DNA from: a virus
IMG/VR virus record: IMGVR_UViG_3300003320_000766
Direction: 5' to 3' (one strand)
Length of the DNA: 64,000 bases
Made by a program: the position numbers and the translations under genes. The notes beneath the pieces were generated by a model that worked only from the letters and a program-made list of their open reading frames with translations, did no database searches and was not told the DNA's origin. The number at the start of each line of letters is the position of its first letter. Position 1 is the stretch's first letter. Shown here in pieces: positions 108-5,629 of this stretch.

Positions 108-299
108 ATGCCCAGAGAGCTTTCACGATTAGAATTATATTTAAAGCATGTGAACACCGATCTGAATTCTCTAAACATACAATTAAGCCACGAGTTCAGA
201 AATCAGAAACTTAATGCTCACATACGCAAAAGAATCAATTCCACCATCCATAACTTGGATAAAATCAAAATTAAATTAACCAATTACAAACAAGGTTAA
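108..299 (+). CDS. Hypothetical 63-aa basic helical protein
   Basis: ORF track; ends GGT TAA, which is the 5' strand of hammerhead 1. Confidence 0.6.
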   Translation: MPRELSRLELYLKHVNTDLNSLNIQLSHEFRNQKLNAHIRKRINSTIHNLDKIKIKLTNYKQG

Positions 300-340
300 C
301 TGACGAGCCCCACGGCGAAACCCGGAAACGGGTCTTAACC
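294..340 (+). ncRNA. Type I hammerhead ribozyme 1
   Basis: Stem I GGUUAA(294-299)/UUAACC(335-340); CUGACGA 300-306; stem II GCC-CCAC-GGC; GAAA 317-320; stem III CCCG-GAAA-CGGG; GUC triplet, predicted cleavage after C334. Confidence 0.88.
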
Positions 341-353
341 AAAACACATTCCA

Positions 354-635
354 ATGAACGAATTAGAAAAAATTTCTGTGCAATCAATCATGGAATTAAA
401 TACCGAAGCAACGGCTTTAAAAGGTGAGTTAGGGATGGCTGCTTACAGATACTACACAGAATTAGCCAAGATTGAAAAGGAACCAATCACAGAGAAGAAT
501 ACACAGTATACGAAAGATTATACGCAGAGACAACTCACCGAAAAATACCACAGAGAAGAACAGAATCTTAGTTCTCAGTATCGCAAGATAACGAGCAGGA
601 TTGAGGCTTTATGTAAAGCATTAATTGCAGGTTAA
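354..635 (+). CDS. Hypothetical 93-aa coiled-coil protein flanked by the two hammerheads
   Basis: ORF track; helical, charged; ends GGT TAA, the 5' strand of hammerhead 2. Confidence 0.7.
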   Translation: MNELEKISVQSIMELNTEATALKGELGMAAYRYYTELAKIEKEPITEKNTQYTKDYTQRQLTEKYHREEQNLSSQYRKITSRIEALCKALIAG

Positions 636-678
636 CTGATGAGGCAAGCGCCGAAACCAGCGAAAGCTGGTCTTAATC
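630..678 (+). ncRNA. Type I hammerhead ribozyme 2
   Basis: Stem I GGUUAA(630-635)/UUAAUC(673-678); CUGAUGA 636-642; stem II GGC-AAGC-GCC; GAAA 653-656; stem III CCAGC-GAAA-GCUGG; GUC triplet, predicted cleavage after C672. Confidence 0.9.
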
Positions 679-695
679 AAAACCACACGTCTATA

Positions 696-1799
696 ATGAA
701 CCACCTATTTAACTCCGACCCATACGGCGAAGTAATCTGCCGTTGGTTTACTCAACATTCCCCAGCTTCCATATCCCGCTCAAAGGAATGTACACTGGAA
801 ATCCTTTCAAGCCTTCTTATTGGCACCAAAGAAAATAGATACGGTCCTATTCCGGTGCCAGAGCACTTGGTAGTTATTCGCGAAACTATTCGCAAATCAA
901 TCGCCATGAACCTGCCGATTCCTATTCTTGTTCCATGGGGCGGCATCAAAGGGAACATGGAGGACCAGACATTGGATATTGCAGAAGTATCTGCGATCTT
1001 TCAGCTTCTACATTTAGACAAAACTATCCGAGAAATTTACGAACCGGGCCTTCTGATCAACGTCAGGATAGAAGACCTGGGGGCTGAATGGCTCTATCGG
1101 GAACTGTCAGTAAGCCGAAAAATCATCAATTACTCTTTATCTATGGAAAGGTTGATTGATAAGATTAAAGGCGAAACAGCAATCACTGGCATTTCAGAAA
1201 GTACGCTAATGCTTCCTGGAGATTATTTTTCATCCTCGATGGTTTATTCAAACCTATTGTTTGACATGATCAATCAACAAATTGAAAAACCAGAACGGGA
1301 TGTTAACGACATTGACGCGTATTGCACACTGGTAGAGATGGGATGGAAAGGTACTGTCCCTATTATACAAAGGGAATACTATATATCCCGCTATCGCAAT
1401 CTTTATCCGGATAAAACTGAAAAAGATTACATCCGTATGCTGGCAGATTATCTGGGAGGAGCCAAAGCCAGATACGATCTTAACGGAAGGGCAGAGCCTA
1501 CATCTGAGGTCGGTTCATATATCCAAATCACTTTCGTTCCACCTGTCCCAGGAGCACCCTCATCTATTTTTAACAATACCCTCTACTGGAGAAGTGTTCC
1601 TATGTCCCAATCCAGGAGCCATATTGCCCCCTGGAGAGCAAAGGGATATCTTAAGATAGGGGAAGAGACCGTTAAAGGCAAAATCACCAACTTTGGTGAC
1701 CCTGTTTTACAAGAATTGGTTCCATCCACCACTACTATCAGAACTGGTAATAGTCAACAAGACTTTGTAAAAATCAGCACTGACTACGTGATTGAATAA
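696..1799 (+). CDS. Dit1/PvcA (isonitrile/isocyanide synthase)-like protein, divergent
   Basis: PIPILVP..K...LDIAEVSAIFQLLHLDKTIREIYEPGLLINVRIED parallels the PvcA/IsnA pattern (LPAFP.KS..PD.AE..AL..L..L...I...Y.PG..I....D). C-terminal IQITFVP..APWR parallels RLSIHP..TPWH. Start moved from 639 to ATG 696 because 639 lies inside hammerhead 2. Confidence 0.65.
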   Translation: MNHLFNSDPYGEVICRWFTQHSPASISRSKECTLEILSSLLIGTKENRYGPIPVPEHLVVIRETIRKSIAMNLPIPILVPWGGIKGNMEDQTLDIAEVSAIFQLLHLDKTIREIYEPGLLINVRIEDLGAEWLYRELSVSRKIINYSLSMERLIDKIKGETAITGISESTLMLPGDYFSSSMVYSNLLFDMINQQIEKPERDVNDIDAYCTLVEMGWKGTVPIIQREYYISRYRNLYPDKTEKDYIRMLADYLGGAKARYDLNGRAEPTSEVGSYIQITFVPPVPGAPSSIFNNTLYWRSVPMSQSRSHIAPWRAKGYLKIGEETVKGKITNFGDPVLQELVPSTTTIRTGNSQQDFVKISTDYVIE

Positions 1800-1836
1800 T
1801 AAATTAAAAATATTTTTTTATCTCAATTAAATTACC

Positions 1837-1844
1837 AATCTTTG
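1837..1844 (+). promoter_or_regulatory. Possible Bacteroidota sigma-A -7 box (AATCTTTG, one mismatch)
   Basis: Near-match to TAnnTTTG in an AT-rich gap upstream of a terminated non-coding stretch. Confidence 0.35.
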
Positions 1845-1849
1845 TTAAG

Positions 1850-1969
1850 GCAAAGAGATAGACAAGTTTGTTCAATAGCTTTTTTCATAGGTATAGTAAT
1901 GTAGGTAATCCTACAACTCGAACATTCAGCTGCGAACCTAGCCGGTCTCTACTGGCTAGGTTTTTTTTT
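1850..1969 (+). ncRNA. Candidate small RNA
   Basis: Non-coding, between a promoter-like box and a strong terminator; contains UUUUUUCAUAGGU and the hairpin UGUAGG-UAAU-CCUACA. Confidence 0.35.
1935..1969 (+). terminator. Intrinsic terminator
   Basis: AACCTAGCCGG-tctcta-CTGGCTAGGTT stem followed by a T9 tract. Confidence 0.85.
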
Positions 1970-1995
1970 ATTTTAAAAATAATTTTAAGAGCAAA

Positions 1996-2760
1996 ATGAA
2001 AAGTGAAAATCTGTTTGGCATTAAATTTTCAGAAAATGTCGGCCAAATTAAGACACAAGTAATTAATCATATTAATGATCGAATGCTTAGCATTGATTTT
2101 ATCCCAGGTGGTGATCGTACAAACCTTGATAAACTCATGTCTGAAGAGGGGCTTAAACAATATTACATTACTCCAGATGTCATAAACATTTGCCAAAAAA
2201 TAAAAATTAGCAAGCCGTATAATTTAGATTGGATAAAAGCACCGCTGCATGTGAAAAAGCAGTATAATTTTGGTGATACTTTTTTCAGATTTCTATATGT
2301 CAATGGCAGCTATTTTGTCTTATCTTGTCATTCCTACAAAAACAACAAGGGGGGTGTAAGCATAAAAAACTATTTTATGCAGATAGACCTGGGCGCAAAA
2401 AAAATGCAGATTGCTGATGATGAATATGCCGAAACTGCTCTAAAGTTATTTTTACAATTACTTGCCTTTATAGAGTCAACAGAAATTGAAGAGGTAACTG
2501 TTACTCCAGGTAAATGGTCTCCCAAAGAAGAAAAAGAACAGCTTAAAAACCAAGCCGCCTTCCCTATTGTAATGGTAAAAACAAACTGGGTTAAAACTCT
2601 CATTCGAATGGAAGGTTTTGATGTCTCAGGACACATTCGCCTACAGCGCCATGGCCCTAACAATTCGCTGGTAAAATCTATCTGGATAAATCCATATACA
2701 AAAAAAGGATATACACTTAAAGCCGGAAAAATAAAAGAGGAGGAAAATAGTTATGAATAA
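1996..2760 (+). CDS. Hypothetical phage protein (254 aa)
   Basis: Long ORF; C-terminal VSGHIRLQRHGP..IWINPY motif of a kind common in uncharacterised phage proteins. Confidence 0.75.
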   Translation: MKSENLFGIKFSENVGQIKTQVINHINDRMLSIDFIPGGDRTNLDKLMSEEGLKQYYITPDVINICQKIKISKPYNLDWIKAPLHVKKQYNFGDTFFRFLYVNGSYFVLSCHSYKNNKGGVSIKNYFMQIDLGAKKMQIADDEYAETALKLFLQLLAFIESTEIEEVTVTPGKWSPKEEKEQLKNQAAFPIVMVKTNWVKTLIRMEGFDVSGHIRLQRHGPNNSLVKSIWINPYTKKGYTLKAGKIKEEENSYE

Positions 2761-3022
2761 ACCAGATAAAATAGAGGAGAAACCGGTAATAAGTCAAGAA
2801 ATAGTTTCTTTTCTTTCGGACCTAATCTTGCTGACTACATTCGCGAAAAGAAAAGGAGTAAGCAAAGATGCTGTATATTACAATATTCGTAATGGCAGAA
2901 TTAAGGAAGACGATTTGATTTGGATAGATATTTACCAGTACATTCGCTGGAGCCAATATAAGGACTTCAGCTTTAAAGACCATGCATTAAGTAAAACTTC
3001 TAAACGAGCAAGTAAACGGTAA
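2753..3022 (+). CDS. Helix-turn-helix DNA-binding protein
   Basis: LTTFAKRKGVSKDAVYYNIRNGRI, excisionase/MerR-like HTH pattern. Confidence 0.6.
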   Translation: MNKPDKIEEKPVISQEIVSFLSDLILLTTFAKRKGVSKDAVYYNIRNGRIKEDDLIWIDIYQYIRWSQYKDFSFKDHALSKTSKRASKR

Positions 3023-3025
3023 GCT

Positions 3026-3250
3026 ATGTCACTTGTTATATGCAATTCCATAGGAAGCATTGATCTTTGCAGAGGATGTGGTGCAGCGAAACCACATTTA
3101 CATGGCAGCTGTGAGCCTTGTCCAGTGAATAAAGAAGCTCACTGTATAGTGTGGTCCAATATTCCGTCTGATCATTTAACAACTCATAATTCAAATAATA
3201 ATTATCATGATGAAGCCAAGGAATGGGAAGGTGCTAATCCTTCCAAATAA
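3026..3250 (+). CDS. Small Cys/His-rich protein
   Basis: CRGC..PHLHGSCEPC..HC cluster. Confidence 0.55.
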   Translation: MSLVICNSIGSIDLCRGCGAAKPHLHGSCEPCPVNKEAHCIVWSNIPSDHLTTHNSNNNYHDEAKEWEGANPSK

Positions 3251-3512
3251 ACCAACAGAGGTAAGCAAAGGTGGGATAATTATCCCTGAAGCTGCTAAAA
3301 AGGATCAGGACAAAGGTAAAATAGTAGCTATCGGTGAAGACATAACAGATGTCTCTGTAGGAGACCACGTTCTATTTGCCAAGAACAATGTTACCCTCAT
3401 GTCGTATGAAGGAATAAATTATGTCATGGCAAATATTGATGACATAATGGGCGTAATTAATAATTATCAATCGCTCATCCCAAATAATCCTGATGCTCAA
3501 ATTCAAAAATAA
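3207..3512 (+). CDS. groES: Co-chaperonin GroES/Cpn10-like protein
   Basis: MKPRNGKVLI..SKGGIIIP (mobile loop)..GKIVAIG..VSVGDHVLF..DDIMGVI. Start may be 3210. Confidence 0.9.
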   Translation: MMKPRNGKVLILPNKPTEVSKGGIIIPEAAKKDQDKGKIVAIGEDITDVSVGDHVLFAKNNVTLMSYEGINYVMANIDDIMGVINNYQSLIPNNPDAQIQK

Positions 3513-3513
3513 T

Positions 3514-3624
3514 ATGAGACAAAAGAAAGTAATCAATCCTAACAAGCTTGAACTTTATTATAAAATAGGTATAGTGGCTTGTTTCATATTCGAATGTATA
3601 TATTTTGCTTTTTTCAGCAATTGA
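3514..3624 (+). CDS. 36-aa single-TM peptide
   Basis: Manually read ORF MRQKKVINPNKLELYYKIGIVACFIFECIYFAFFSN filling the gap. Confidence 0.5.
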   Translation: MRQKKVINPNKLELYYKIGIVACFIFECIYFAFFSN

Positions 3625-3635
3625 ATTTAAACCAC

Positions 3636-4139
3636 ATGGCTTATCCTTTAGAAACGATTGTTTCACTACTTGAATTTGTGGAAATATTTGAAGCGAATAA
3701 AGAATTAACCACAGATGGAGAGATGGCTTATAGCGTCTTACCAGATGTATTAACCCATCCAGTTTTTATCATTACTTATGATGACGTACTAAATGAAAAC
3801 ATTATTCTCCTGATAGAACCAGGAAGAGTGGCCCCATTTAGCCCACATGAATCATGGGAAGATTTGATGTTCCTCTTACCATTGATTCATAATCAAATAC
3901 ACACTTACCAAAATGCCTCTACTGATGCCGTACAAAGGCATACCACTAATTATTTCCACAATTTCATTTTATCCATAGAAAAGAATATTACCGTTAGCTA
4001 CAGCAAGACTGAATGCTGGAACAACTTAGTTAAACTGGAATCAGCTTTGTATGCAATAAAAATTTATTTTCCAACATTAAATAACAGCAGCAATGGAACT
4101 ACCGGGGATGGACAACAAAGCAATGAACCTATTCAATAG
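3636..4139 (+). CDS. Hypothetical protein
   Basis: ORF track 3579-4139; ATG 3636 preferred (no overlap, A-rich leader). Confidence 0.65.
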   Translation: MAYPLETIVSLLEFVEIFEANKELTTDGEMAYSVLPDVLTHPVFIITYDDVLNENIILLIEPGRVAPFSPHESWEDLMFLLPLIHNQIHTYQNASTDAVQRHTTNYFHNFILSIEKNITVSYSKTECWNNLVKLESALYAIKIYFPTLNNSSNGTTGDGQQSNEPIQ

Positions 4140-4410
4140 GACCAAGATTGAAGAAAACGGTCTTCCGGTAATTACAAATTTGGAATTCCGTATATCATGT
4201 GAACGTCTAAGATCAGGTGACATGTCGGCATATGATGAAACTATTACTAAATACACCCTAATTGATGGGCAGAAAAATCTTTTTATCTCATTGTATAAAA
4301 AGTTGGTCCCAGAGCAAGACGATTATGACGAATTCACTAAGAACTATATTGCCACATATAATTTATTTCCTCATCCAGACTCTCCAAATTATTCATCTTC
4401 TAATATTTGA
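4093..4410 (+). CDS. Hypothetical protein
   Basis: ORF track; packed in the co-directional run. Confidence 0.6.
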   Translation: MELPGMDNKAMNLFNRTKIEENGLPVITNLEFRISCERLRSGDMSAYDETITKYTLIDGQKNLFISLYKKLVPEQDDYDEFTKNYIATYNLFPHPDSPNYSSSNI

Positions 4411-4413
4411 CTG

Positions 4414-4839
4414 ATGAGTTATTATACATATTTCAAATTCAAAATAAAGCTTCGTAAAGATACCCCTTTAGAAGTCATACATATTCTGTGTAACTCTATT
4501 GATAACATAGATGATATGACTTACAAAAAAGTAAATCATTCTTTTTTTGATCAAAAAAGATGGATGACGCTATTTCACAAAAATGCCTTTTTTGAAGAAG
4601 AAGGATATCCATGCCTTAAAGTATTTCCTCACTCAGGAAATTATGAATTAAAATTGATTGGTGAAATCAATAACGGTTATGATGAAATTAATCTTTTTTG
4701 TGACTGGATTTCTCCATATGTGATGGGGCATAAGAAAAAGCGTTTTTTGGGGGAAAGCAAGGGAGAAGAACAAAAAACATGCATTAACCATTATGCCATA
4801 TATGATTCCATATCTAAAAGTTATTCTTATAAATATTGA
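4414..4839 (+). CDS. Hypothetical phage protein
   Basis: ORF track; packed operon. Confidence 0.7.
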   Translation: MSYYTYFKFKIKLRKDTPLEVIHILCNSIDNIDDMTYKKVNHSFFDQKRWMTLFHKNAFFEEEGYPCLKVFPHSGNYELKLIGEINNGYDEINLFCDWISPYVMGHKKKRFLGESKGEEQKTCINHYAIYDSISKSYSYKY

Positions 4840-4850
4840 ACTTATATTAT

Positions 4851-5252
4851 ATGGTACTTAAAGATAAAGTGTGTACGCGGGAACAAGCAATCCAATTAAT
4901 GAATCTTGGAATATTTCAACCACTAGAAAGTGAAGAGTGGCAACCAGGAGACATCTATAGTTCACTTACCTCATCTTCAGACGATGGTTATATTTTTATA
5001 TTAGGTCATCAAGAAGATTCTCCTTATAAAATTTATCACCCTGTCAAACTATATGATTGCGCCGAACTTGGGGCAATGCTTCTCTCTTATAACGAAGCCT
5101 ATTATACTAAAAACAACATGTGGGCATGTGGTGATCTACCTGGAGCATTTCCCACAGAAGCGCAAGCTAAGGCTAATAGGCTCATACAATTACTTTCGGA
5201 TGAAATCTTATCCGCAACCGAAATAAATCACCTATTTAATGACCGTAAATAA
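4851..5252 (+). CDS. Hypothetical phage protein
   Basis: VCTREQAIQLMNLG N-terminus; ATG 4851 preferred to the TTG start at 4836. Confidence 0.65.
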   Translation: MVLKDKVCTREQAIQLMNLGIFQPLESEEWQPGDIYSSLTSSSDDGYIFILGHQEDSPYKIYHPVKLYDCAELGAMLLSYNEAYYTKNNMWACGDLPGAFPTEAQAKANRLIQLLSDEILSATEINHLFNDRK

Positions 5253-5257
5253 ATACC

Positions 5258-5629
5258 ATGAAAGAAACGTCTAACATTCCAGTAGAAGATATACTCAAAA
5301 AAGCCTTAAATACCGACAGGCTCAGTTTTTCTTACCGTGAAGTAGTTATTCCAGCTATAAAAAAATGGAATTACGAAACTATTTCTTCACATCAAGCCCT
5401 CATTAGTTTACAAGAAAAGGAGATAAAAGACCTTAGAGAAGAATTGCTTTTAATGAGAAAAGAAAAGGAACATGTTCTCAGCACTCAAGGAATCCTATTT
5501 AGGATCGGCTCTATTAATCGTCCGTTTATATCTCTTTATATGAATGAGTGGATATTCTTCGTGGCAATTGCACTTATTGCAGCTACTTCGATGTACATCT
5601 TACTTAGTATAATCCTATGTTTACAATAA
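5258..5629 (+). CDS. Coiled-coil protein with C-terminal TM helix
   Basis: WIFFVAIALIAATSMYILLSIILC hydrophobic tail. Confidence 0.6.
   Translation: MKETSNIPVEDILKKALNTDRLSFSYREVVIPAIKKWNYETISSHQALISLQEKEIKDLREELLLMRKEKEHVLSTQGILFRIGSINRPFISLYMNEWIFFVAIALIAATSMYILLSIILCLQ

What the first reader, a model, noticed from the sequence alone, without database searches (positions are those of the whole stretch)
335..672. Double cleavage would release a 338-nt protein-coding RNA that could circularise into an intact hammerhead
Seen in the sequence: cuts after C334 and C672 excise 335-672, which holds the whole 93-aa ORF and its leader. Joining the ends places hammerhead 2's GGUUAA against hammerhead 1's UUAACC, a perfect 6-bp stem I, so the circle would carry a complete ribozyme. 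Established: 5'-OH and cyclic-phosphate ends are substrates of RtcB-type ligases, and tandem hammerheads produce circles in retrozymes and viroid-like RNAs. Inference: a DNA phage may make a small circular mRNA, or this may be a captured retrozyme-like unit.
Basis: inference. Interest (0 to 1): 0.7.

Follow-up and report, generated by a model that had tools for sequence, protein, structure and literature searches.

The report
Two hammerhead ribozymes flanking a phage gene
Two genuine-looking self-cutting hammerhead RNA motifs bracket a small orphan gene in an uncultured root-soil phage and most likely chop a three-gene message into single-gene messages, an arrangement known in phages since 2011; the idea that the released piece closes into a circle is geometrically sound but untested and has some evidence against it.

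Summary
Two complete type I hammerheads lie at 294-340 (cut after C334) and 630-678 (cut after C672). The 338-nt piece between the cuts carries the 93-codon ORF. Its two ends can form a perfect 6-bp stem I.

That end-compatibility is not special to this unit. Both ribozymes belong to a widespread phage class with a nearly fixed stem I (GGUUAA/UUAACC). Members abut the upstream stop codon and cut about 20 nt before the next ATG. A related phage (L001) has 11 of them in 7 kb. In other phage type I arrays, neighbouring stems I are often incompatible.

With a strong terminator at 1934-1963, the best reading is ribozyme processing of a three-gene operon into single-gene mRNAs. Perreault et al. 2011 proposed this for prophages. 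They also raised circular products and detected none.

The predicted fold does bring the excised RNA's ends together, but it leaves the hammerhead intact, so a circle should re-cleave. Both copies lack the class's usual stem II and loop II. No retrozyme features were found, and no RNA data exist for this phage.

This scan has reported similar hammerhead arrays on other DNA. Verdict: a new member of a known kind. A circular mRNA remains a low-probability open option.

The parts
108..299 (+). Upstream 63-codon ORF. Its TAA stop (297-299) forms the last three bases of HH1's stem I 5' strand.
   Evidence: Codon-usage score is weak (-0.06 in frame against -0.66 and -0.28 off frame). No family match.
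294..340 (+). Hammerhead 1, type I, with the predicted cut between C334 and U335.
   Evidence: Full canonical core and three helices. Class model R1 gives 51.4 bits, E 3.3e-12. Rfam RF00163 gives 18 bits, below its gathering score of 34.
335..672 (+). The 338-nt RNA released if both ribozymes cut: a 19-nt A-rich leader, the 93-codon ORF, and nearly all of HH2 at the 3' end.
   Evidence: Sequence. In the predicted fold the 5' end pairs with 630-635 at P 0.61-0.97.
354..635 (+). The 93-codon orphan ORF. Its TAA stop (633-635) lies in HH2's stem I. The predicted protein is a two-helix antiparallel hairpin.
   Evidence: It has no relative among 5.8 billion clusters or 1.84 billion representatives. 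Codon usage is coding-like: +0.25 in frame against -0.61 and -0.43 off frame. An ORF this long arises by chance with P about 0.006. AlphaFold2 gives pLDDT 93.4 with helices 3-42 and 51-92. PDB matches are generic coiled coils only.
630..678 (+). Hammerhead 2, type I, with the predicted cut between C672 and U673.
   Evidence: Full canonical core and three helices. R1 gives 51.7 bits, E 2.5e-12. Its own stem I contains one G-U pair.
696..1799 (+). Downstream 367-codon gene, a member of a phage family related to PvcA/Dit1. The true start is probably ATG696, 23 nt after the cut, rather than ATG639, which lies inside the HH2 core.
   Evidence: About 100 homologues of 356-417 aa align over 82-100% of the 696-start protein. 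One of them carries PF05141.
1934..1973 (+). Intrinsic-terminator-like hairpin (13-bp stem followed by a T run) that would end the three-gene transcript.

Best explanation
The two motifs are intercistronic type I hammerheads in a three-gene phage operon: ORF63, HH1, ORF93, HH2, a PvcA-like gene, then a terminator. As the transcript is made, each ribozyme folds just behind the upstream stop codon and cuts itself about 20 nt before the next start codon. Each upstream message then ends in a compact three-way junction with a 2',3'-cyclic phosphate. Each downstream message starts with a 5'-OH and a short, A-rich leader without a Shine-Dalgarno sequence. The result would be three linear single-gene mRNAs whose stability and translation are uncoupled. 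Shown here: the motifs themselves, their class membership, their exact placement between ORFs, and the terminator. Inferred: that they cleave in vivo, and the effects on mRNA stability and translation.
For: Both sites have complete cores and all three helices. Chance expectation is 0.04 sites per 64 kb. In the class alignment of 70 copies, 13 of 16 pairs show compensatory changes. The class is widespread: at least 120 viral stretches and 27 genome stretches matched the pattern. A related phage carrying the homologous 367-aa gene has 11 copies in 7.1 kb, all on the coding strand. One lies directly before that gene, as HH2 does here. In the class, the distance from the cut to the next ATG peaks at 18-24 nt. 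The leaders are A-rich, and only 26 of 170 contain an SD-like motif. The upstream ORF ends inside the ribozyme or within 10 nt of it in 161 of 178 copies. Distances between neighbouring cuts are gene-sized and variable, 163-1730 nt with a median of 407. A 13-bp terminator hairpin follows the third gene. Perreault et al. 2011 showed that clustered prophage hammerheads cleave in vitro and in E. coli, and proposed processing into single-gene mRNAs (PMC3088659).
Against: There is no RNA evidence for this phage; the only run listed as holding it is a DNA library from a root metagenome. Both copies depart from the class. They have a 3-bp stem II and a 4-nt loop, whereas 194 of 201 class copies have a 4-5-bp stem II. 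They also lack two loop II residues found in at least 90% of class copies. They may therefore lack a tertiary contact and cut slowly at cellular Mg2+. Nearest-neighbour folding gives their own stems I low probability in the precursor, 0.05 and 0.005; that model ignores stabilisation by the hammerhead core. Six other sampled phages carrying the homologous gene (L002-L010) have no such ribozyme, so the element is dispensable. The biological benefit of such processing has never been demonstrated in any phage (PMC6765202).
Confidence: 0.68

Rival explanations
1. One reading: the excised 338-nt RNA is closed into a circle, or held as an end-paired closed loop. Closure would come either from the reverse reaction of the rebuilt hammerhead or from a host RtcB-type ligase. 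The product would be a circular mRNA for the 93-aa protein that resists exonucleases.
For: The geometry is correct. In the predicted ensemble of the excised RNA, the 5' UUAACC pairs with GGUUAA 630-635 at P 0.61-0.97, while stems II and III stay formed at P 0.88-1.0. This places the 5'-OH of U335 beside the cyclic phosphate of C672. The cross stem is stronger than HH2's own stem I: -4.1 against -1.5 kcal/mol as isolated duplexes. In the 5'-cleaved nascent RNA 335-685 the cross stem also wins, at P about 0.93. From established knowledge and the papers listed: RtcB joins such ends, and type I hammerhead retrozymes of animals give circles (PMC7229834). Perreault et al. noted that type I is the architecture that keeps the catalytic bulk attached to the cyclic-phosphate end.
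Against: End-compatibility is a by-product of the class-wide fixed stem I. It is absent in many other phage type I arrays: 22 of 43 neighbouring pairs have 3 or fewer cross pairs, for example across the 7-copy array in L246. The circular MFE keeps an intact hammerhead, and no alternative fold hides it, so a circle should re-cleave. From my own knowledge, minimal hammerheads without tertiary contacts favour cleavage over ligation by about 100-fold, and these two copies lack the class loop II. ViennaRNA does not charge for closing a 290-nt loop, so the end-pairing probability is overestimated. Perreault et al. looked for circular products from prophage clusters and found none.
Confidence: 0.1
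2. The two hammerheads are decaying or near-neutral remnants of a once larger array. They cut poorly or not at all in vivo, and the operon is expressed mainly as one polycistronic mRNA.
For: Only 2 copies are found in the window, against 11 in the related phage L001 and none in six other sampled relatives. Both copies lack the class's 4-5-bp stem II and its conserved loop II residues, and they score about 10-18 bits below the L001 copies. An upstream UUAACC at 276-281 is predicted to capture HH1's GGUUAA at P 0.63-0.94.
Against: Every core nucleotide needed for catalysis is intact in both copies, and all three helices are perfect, including GNRA-capped stems III. A neutral relic would be expected to have accumulated core or stem mismatches. 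The exact placement (stop codon within stem I, ATG 19 and 23 nt after the cut) is preserved. From my own knowledge, minimal hammerheads with a 3-4-bp stem II are active in vitro.
Confidence: 0.17
3. The 335-672 unit is a captured retrozyme-like or viroid-like mobile RNA element that happens to sit in a phage genome.
For: Only the bare layout supports this: two same-strand hammerheads about 340 nt apart, a size typical of such elements.
Against: The only direct repeats are the ribozymes plus about 5 nt, with no LTR-like or unit-length repeats. The insert has coding-like codon usage and a start codon at the class-typical distance. The predicted fold is not rod-like and does not sequester the ribozyme. 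The same ribozyme class sits between unrelated genes at variable spacing in many phages. Neither the unit nor its protein was found anywhere else.
Confidence: 0.03

Closest known systems
Clustered hammerhead ribozymes flanking single genes or short gene blocks in prophages (Perreault et al. 2011, PLoS Comput Biol, PMC3088659; examples from Clostridium scindens, Azorhizobium caulinodans and Agrobacterium tumefaciens)
   Same: Several same-strand hammerheads bracket individual small genes within a phage transcription unit. Those authors proposed processing into single-gene mRNAs and also raised circular or spliced products as a possibility.
   Different: The present case is an uncultured lytic-looking phage of about 92 kb from a root metagenome. 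Its ribozymes belong to a subclass with a fixed stem I (GGUUAA/UUAACC) and a cut-to-ATG spacing of about 20 nt. I did not find that subclass described in the papers I read. Rfam's gathering scores miss it, both here and for all 11 copies in L001. No biochemistry exists for these copies.
Rfam RF00163, Hammerhead_1 (type I hammerhead)
   Same: It has the same core, the same open stem I and the same closed stems II and III. The alignment covers model positions 1-45 of 45.
   Different: The score is 18 bits against a gathering score of 34. The Rfam consensus shown has a different stem I and different stem lengths.
Animal and plant retrozymes, and viroid-like circular RNAs with hammerheads (PMC7229834, PMC7761336)
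   Same: Two hammerheads delimit a unit of a few hundred nucleotides. Its ends (5'-OH and 2',3'-cyclic phosphate) are ligase substrates, and joining them restores a hammerhead.
   Different: Those elements are repeated and non-coding. They fold into stable rods or branched structures that silence the ribozyme, and they are known as circles in vivo. Here the unit is single-copy, coding-like and not rod-like, and no circle has been observed.
Ribozymes placed just upstream of ORFs in RNA viruses (PMC13725137, NAR 2026)
   Same: A type I hammerhead fills a short intergenic region and cuts a few nucleotides before the next start codon (7 nt in PtFV1). It is proposed to produce a translatable downstream RNA.
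   Different: Those cases involve eukaryotic hosts and RNA genomes, and the ribozymes have different tertiary features. That paper explicitly set aside DNA phage hits as already described.

Membership tests
Hammerhead ribozyme, type I | Conserved core: C3 U4 G5 A6 N7 G8 A9, G12 A13 A14, the A15.1-U16.1 pair, and H17 (not G) before the cut | tested here: met
   HH1 has CUGACGA at 300-306, GAA at 317-319, the A320-U333 pair and C334. HH2 has CUGAUGA at 636-642, GAA at 653-655, the A656-U671 pair and C672.
Hammerhead ribozyme, type I | Three helices around the core, with stem I open and stems II and III closed by loops, and G10.1-C11.1 closing stem II | tested here: met
   Helix lengths for stems I, II and III are 6/3/5 bp in HH1 and 6/3/6 bp in HH2. 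The MFE of HH1 alone is the hammerhead fold.
Hammerhead ribozyme, type I | Helices supported by compensatory changes among relatives | tested here: met
   At class level, 13 of 16 pairs in 70 copies show double changes. Stems II and III covary freely. This phage has no close relatives, so the test applies to the class and not to these two loci alone.
Hammerhead ribozyme, type I | Reaches the curated Rfam gathering score | tested here: not met
   RF00163 gives 18 bits against 34. HH2 matches only RF03152 and RF00008 far below threshold. The same is true for all 11 copies in L001, so this reflects the models' training set.
Hammerhead ribozyme, type I | [quoted passage not shown] | tested here: inconclusive
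   The class has nearly invariant loop II residues and a 4-5-bp stem II. Both window copies have a 3-bp stem II with loops CCAC and AAGC. The flanking A residues at 293/341 and 629/679 are kept.
Hammerhead ribozyme, type I | Site-specific self-cleavage giving 2',3'-cyclic phosphate and 5'-OH ends | not testable with these tools
   No RNA run holds this sequence.
Clustered intercistronic phage hammerheads (Perreault 2011) | Two or more hammerheads on the coding strand, in the gaps that flank single genes of one co-directional block | tested here: met
   The ORFs 108-299, 354-635 and 696-1799 are all on the + strand. The ribozymes fill the two gaps, and a terminator lies at 1934-1963.
Retrozyme / viroid-like circular RNA | Unit-length or LTR-like direct repeats carrying the ribozymes, with multiple copies of the unit | tested here: not met
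   The repeats cover only the ribozyme plus about 5 nt. No second copy of the unit or of its protein was found anywhere.
Retrozyme / viroid-like circular RNA | Non-coding RNA with a stable rod-like or branched fold that sequesters the ribozyme in the circle | tested here: not met
   The ORF is coding-like. The circular MFE keeps stems I, II and III of the hammerhead.
Retrozyme / viroid-like circular RNA | Covalently closed RNA detected, by junction reads or RNase R resistance | not testable with these tools
   No RNA runs are available.

The most novel reading that the evidence does not exclude
After both cuts, the 338-nt message for the 93-aa protein pairs its 5' UUAACC with the GGUUAA of its own 3'-terminal hammerhead. 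It is then closed, reversibly by the ribozyme or stably by a host RtcB ligase, into a circular or end-locked mRNA. Because the whole GGUUAA class shares this stem I, every excised cistron in such arrays could do the same. Circular or closed-loop mRNAs would then be a routine product of these phages.
Probability: 0.08. Interest if true: 0.75.

Novelty: new member of a known kind. Interest (0 to 1): 0.3.

Why it matters
The purpose of the many hammerheads in phage genomes is still open (PMC6765202). This locus is a clean, minimal test case: two ribozymes, one small gene, one terminator. The class analysis adds concrete handles. One is a fixed stem I. Another is a spacing of about 20 nt to the next start codon, with SD-less leaders that I read as typical of Bacteroidota-type translation initiation. 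A third is that the ribozymes abut or absorb the upstream stop codon. Together these point to a compact module that ends one message and starts the next, and they make the processing-versus-circle question directly testable. If circles did form, this would be the first natural circular mRNA from a DNA phage. The evidence here makes that unlikely.

Tried and rejected
- **Rfam:** no hit at gathering score over the whole window; only sub-threshold hits.
- **Near relatives of the locus:** blastn of 1-2000 against 50,697 phage records found nothing. Back-translated scans of IMG/VR with the 367-aa and 93-aa proteins also found nothing.
- **Whole genome and upstream DNA:** no whole genome is held for this window. 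The exact-sequence look-up of the 386-aa gene call failed, so DNA upstream of the window start could not be fetched.
- **RNA evidence:** no RNA holder is listed.
- **Circle junction:** the 24-mer spanning C672 to U335 is absent from metagenome contigs. The native HH2 25-mer is absent too, so that search had no power.
- **The 93-aa protein:** no Pfam or PHROG family, no homologue by word-indexed or full HMMER search, and only generic coiled-coil fold matches.
- **Phage-encoded RNA ligase or RtcB:** about 35 window ORFs were scanned against Pfam, PHROGs or both, and no RNA ligase or RtcB family appeared. This is incomplete: many small ORFs and about 28 kb of the contig were not seen.
- **Bacteroidota-type promoter pattern:** no more matches than expected by chance, and none near the operon.
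- **Homology of flanking genes:** the 93-aa and 63-aa ORFs do not match the genes at the same positions in L001.
- **Rejected idea:** that the perfect cross stem I reflects selection for circularisation. It follows from class-wide stem I conservation and is not required in other arrays.

Full report
**What is there**

Reading 1-1500 shows two complete type I hammerheads on the + strand.

- **HH1 (294-340):** GGUUAA, CUGACGA, a 3-bp stem II (GCC/GGC, loop CCAC), GAA, a 5-bp stem III capped by GAAA, then U333, C334, and UUAACC.
- **HH2 (630-678):** the same plan with CUGAUGA, stem II GGC/GCC (loop AAGC), a 6-bp stem III capped by GAAA, then U671, C672, and UUAAUC.

Every core position needed for catalysis is present. 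The cuts fall after C334 and C672, so the piece between them is 335-672, which is 338 nt. It holds ATG354 to TAA633-635, a 93-codon ORF. Joining its ends sets GGUUAA(630-635) against UUAACC(335-340), six Watson-Crick pairs. HH2's own stem I has one G-U pair.

**Is it more than chance?**

A strict descriptor of my own asked for the core, at least 4 bp in stem I, at least 2 bp in stem II, at least 3 bp in stem III, the A15.1-U16.1 pair and a non-G at position 17.

- It finds exactly these two sites in 64 kb on both strands.
- It finds a mean of 0.04 sites per 64-kb second-order Markov surrogate.
- Rfam does not report the sites at gathering score. With permissive settings RF00163 aligns end to end with HH1 at 18 bits against a gathering score of 34.

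**The wider family**

The 367-aa protein encoded just after HH2 has about 100 homologues on phage-sized contigs. I fetched loci for seven of them.

- One locus, L001 (49% identical protein), carries 10 hammerheads by my descriptor and 11 by covariance model in 7.1 kb. All are on the coding strand. One lies directly before the homologous gene, as HH2 does here, and one lies directly after it.
- Nearly all have stem I GGUUAA/UUAACC.
It also found 27 stretches in prokaryote assemblies, many of them Bacteroidota MAGs.
- An alignment of 70 copies shows stems II and III covarying freely, with 13 of 16 pairs carrying double changes.
- The covariance model built from that alignment (R1) finds exactly two sites in the window, at 51.4 and 51.7 bits. 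It finds 11 in L001 and none in the other relatives L002-L010. The two window copies were in the training alignment.

**How the class sits in genomes**

Across 213 copies in the pattern-selected loci plus the window and L001:

- The distance from the cut to the next ATG of an ORF of at least 40 codons peaks sharply at 18-24 nt. It is 19 and 23 nt here.
- The leaders are A-rich and G-poor. Only 26 of 170 hold an SD-like motif. From my own knowledge this fits Bacteroidota-type translation initiation.
- In 161 of 178 non-identical copies the upstream ORF ends within 10 nt of the ribozyme or inside it. In 59 the stop is the stem I TAA, as in both window copies. In 27 it is the core UGA.
- Distances between neighbouring cuts run from 163 to 1730 nt with a median of 407. 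They are gene-sized and variable, not a fixed unit length.

In the window a 13-bp terminator-like hairpin with a T run lies at 1934-1963, after the third gene. The local picture is a three-gene operon: ORF63, HH1, ORF93, HH2, a PvcA-like gene, then a terminator.

**What is already known**

Perreault et al. 2011 (PMC3088659) reported that multiple hammerheads often flank single genes or short gene blocks in prophages.

- They showed that such clusters cleave in vitro and in E. coli.
- They proposed processing of long phage transcripts into single-gene or operon-length mRNAs.
- They also wrote that successive cleavage and ligation could yield spliced or circular RNAs, and that they could detect neither.

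A 2019 review (PMC6765202) still calls the purpose undefined. My literature searches found no paper showing circles from phage hammerhead pairs. Earlier follow-ups in this scan reached the same 'known kind' verdict for similar arrays on other DNA.

**Testing the circle idea**

For:

- ViennaRNA predicts that the excised 338-nt RNA pairs its 5' UUAACC with GGUUAA 630-635 at P 0.61-0.97, with stems II and III intact. The two reactive ends would then meet in a hammerhead active site.
- In the 5'-cleaved nascent RNA the cross stem beats HH2's own stem I.

Against:

1. The compatibility follows from the class-wide fixed stem I. GGTTAA occurs in 177 of 213 copies and TTAACC in 162 of 213, so it is not a property of this unit.
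2. A scan that did not specify stem I gave 103 type I hammerheads in 73 new viral loci (L158 onward) with very diverse stems I. Pooling those loci with the earlier ones, 43 neighbouring pairs did not both have the GRTTAA stem I. Of these, 22 shared 3 or fewer contiguous cross pairs. The 7-copy array of L246 is an example. End-compatibility is therefore not a general requirement of phage arrays.
3. The circular MFE keeps the complete hammerhead, and no alternative fold hides it. Viroids and retrozymes are thought to survive as circles through such alternative folds.
4. Both window copies lack the class's 4-5-bp stem II and its nearly invariant loop II residues. That makes them look like minimal hammerheads. 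From my own knowledge, the internal equilibrium of minimal hammerheads strongly favours cleavage.
5. The folding model does not penalise closing a 290-nt loop, so the end-pairing probability is inflated.

No RNA data exist for this phage. No RtcB or other RNA ligase family turned up among the roughly 35 ORFs I scanned, but that coverage is incomplete.

**The retrozyme alternative**

- The only direct repeats are the ribozymes plus about 5 nt.
- The insert has coding-like codon usage: +0.25 in frame against -0.61 and -0.43 off frame. A chance ORF of this length has P about 0.006.
- Neither the unit nor its protein occurs anywhere else.
- This alternative is rejected.

**The 93-aa protein**

It is an orphan. 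AlphaFold2 predicts it with high confidence from a single sequence as a two-helix antiparallel hairpin, pLDDT 93.4. Its PDB neighbours are generic coiled coils only. Its function is unknown. Small helical early proteins of phages are often host-takeover or anti-defence factors; that is speculation here.

**Verdict**

- The best explanation, at about 0.68, is ribozyme processing of a three-gene early operon into linear single-gene mRNAs. This is a new member of a known kind.
- The main rivals are weakly active relics (about 0.17) and a circular or end-locked mRNA (about 0.10).
- The most useful new points are at class level: a widespread GGUUAA-stem I subclass that Rfam thresholds miss, placed with near-constant spacing between the stop codon and the next start codon.

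Noticed in passing
window 276-281: A third UUAACC copy (followed by AA, like the post-cleavage leaders) lies 12 nt upstream of HH1's GGUUAA, inside the end of ORF63. ViennaRNA pairs it with 294-299 at P 0.63-0.94, in competition with HH1's stem I. It could attenuate HH1 or could be chance.
   Followed up: partly
window 639-698: The longest ORF for the PvcA-like gene starts at ATG639, which lies inside HH2's CUGAUGA core. The database copy of this window's protein (P0001) is 386 aa, the length from that start. Most homologues are 360-380 aa long and align over 97-100% of the protein starting at ATG696, 23 nt after the cut.
   Followed up: yes
L001 271-5585 (JGI 3300066489, Ga0606648_0000165): Eleven type I hammerheads lie in 7.1 kb, in most of the gaps between small genes. 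Rfam reports none of them at gathering score, so this class is probably under-annotated in phage genomes.
   Followed up: yes
class alignment A1; loci L011-L157: The class features go beyond the core. An A directly before stem I is present in 97% of copies, and an A directly after it in 90%. Loop II is a 5-nt U-N-A-A/U-U in most copies. The cut-to-ATG spacing is 18-24 nt, with A-rich leaders lacking an SD sequence. Why the stem I sequence is fixed while stems II and III covary is unexplained.
   Followed up: partly
L010 399-470; L003 2338-2641; L004 575-878: In the closest relative (55% identical protein) a tRNA gene lies about 30 nt before the homologous gene, where this phage has HH2. A tRNA is another way to get an endonucleolytic cut between cistrons. 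Two other relatives carry a permuted tmRNA upstream of the gene.
   Followed up: no
L246 (IMG/VR locus), minus strand 924-5370: An array of seven type I hammerheads at gene-sized spacing has different, mostly mutually incompatible stems I. It is a useful contrast to the GGUUAA class.
   Followed up: partly
window 696-1799: The 367-aa gene belongs to a large family found on phage-sized contigs (about 100 homologues in this search). One member carries Pfam PF05141 (Dit1/PvcA, isonitrile synthase-like). In different relatives it is preceded by a hammerhead, a tRNA or a plain gap.
   Followed up: partly
window 4405-4438: Model R1 gives a weak hit here (13.5 bits, E 0.57) in a 21% GC stretch. It is probably chance.
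   Followed up: no
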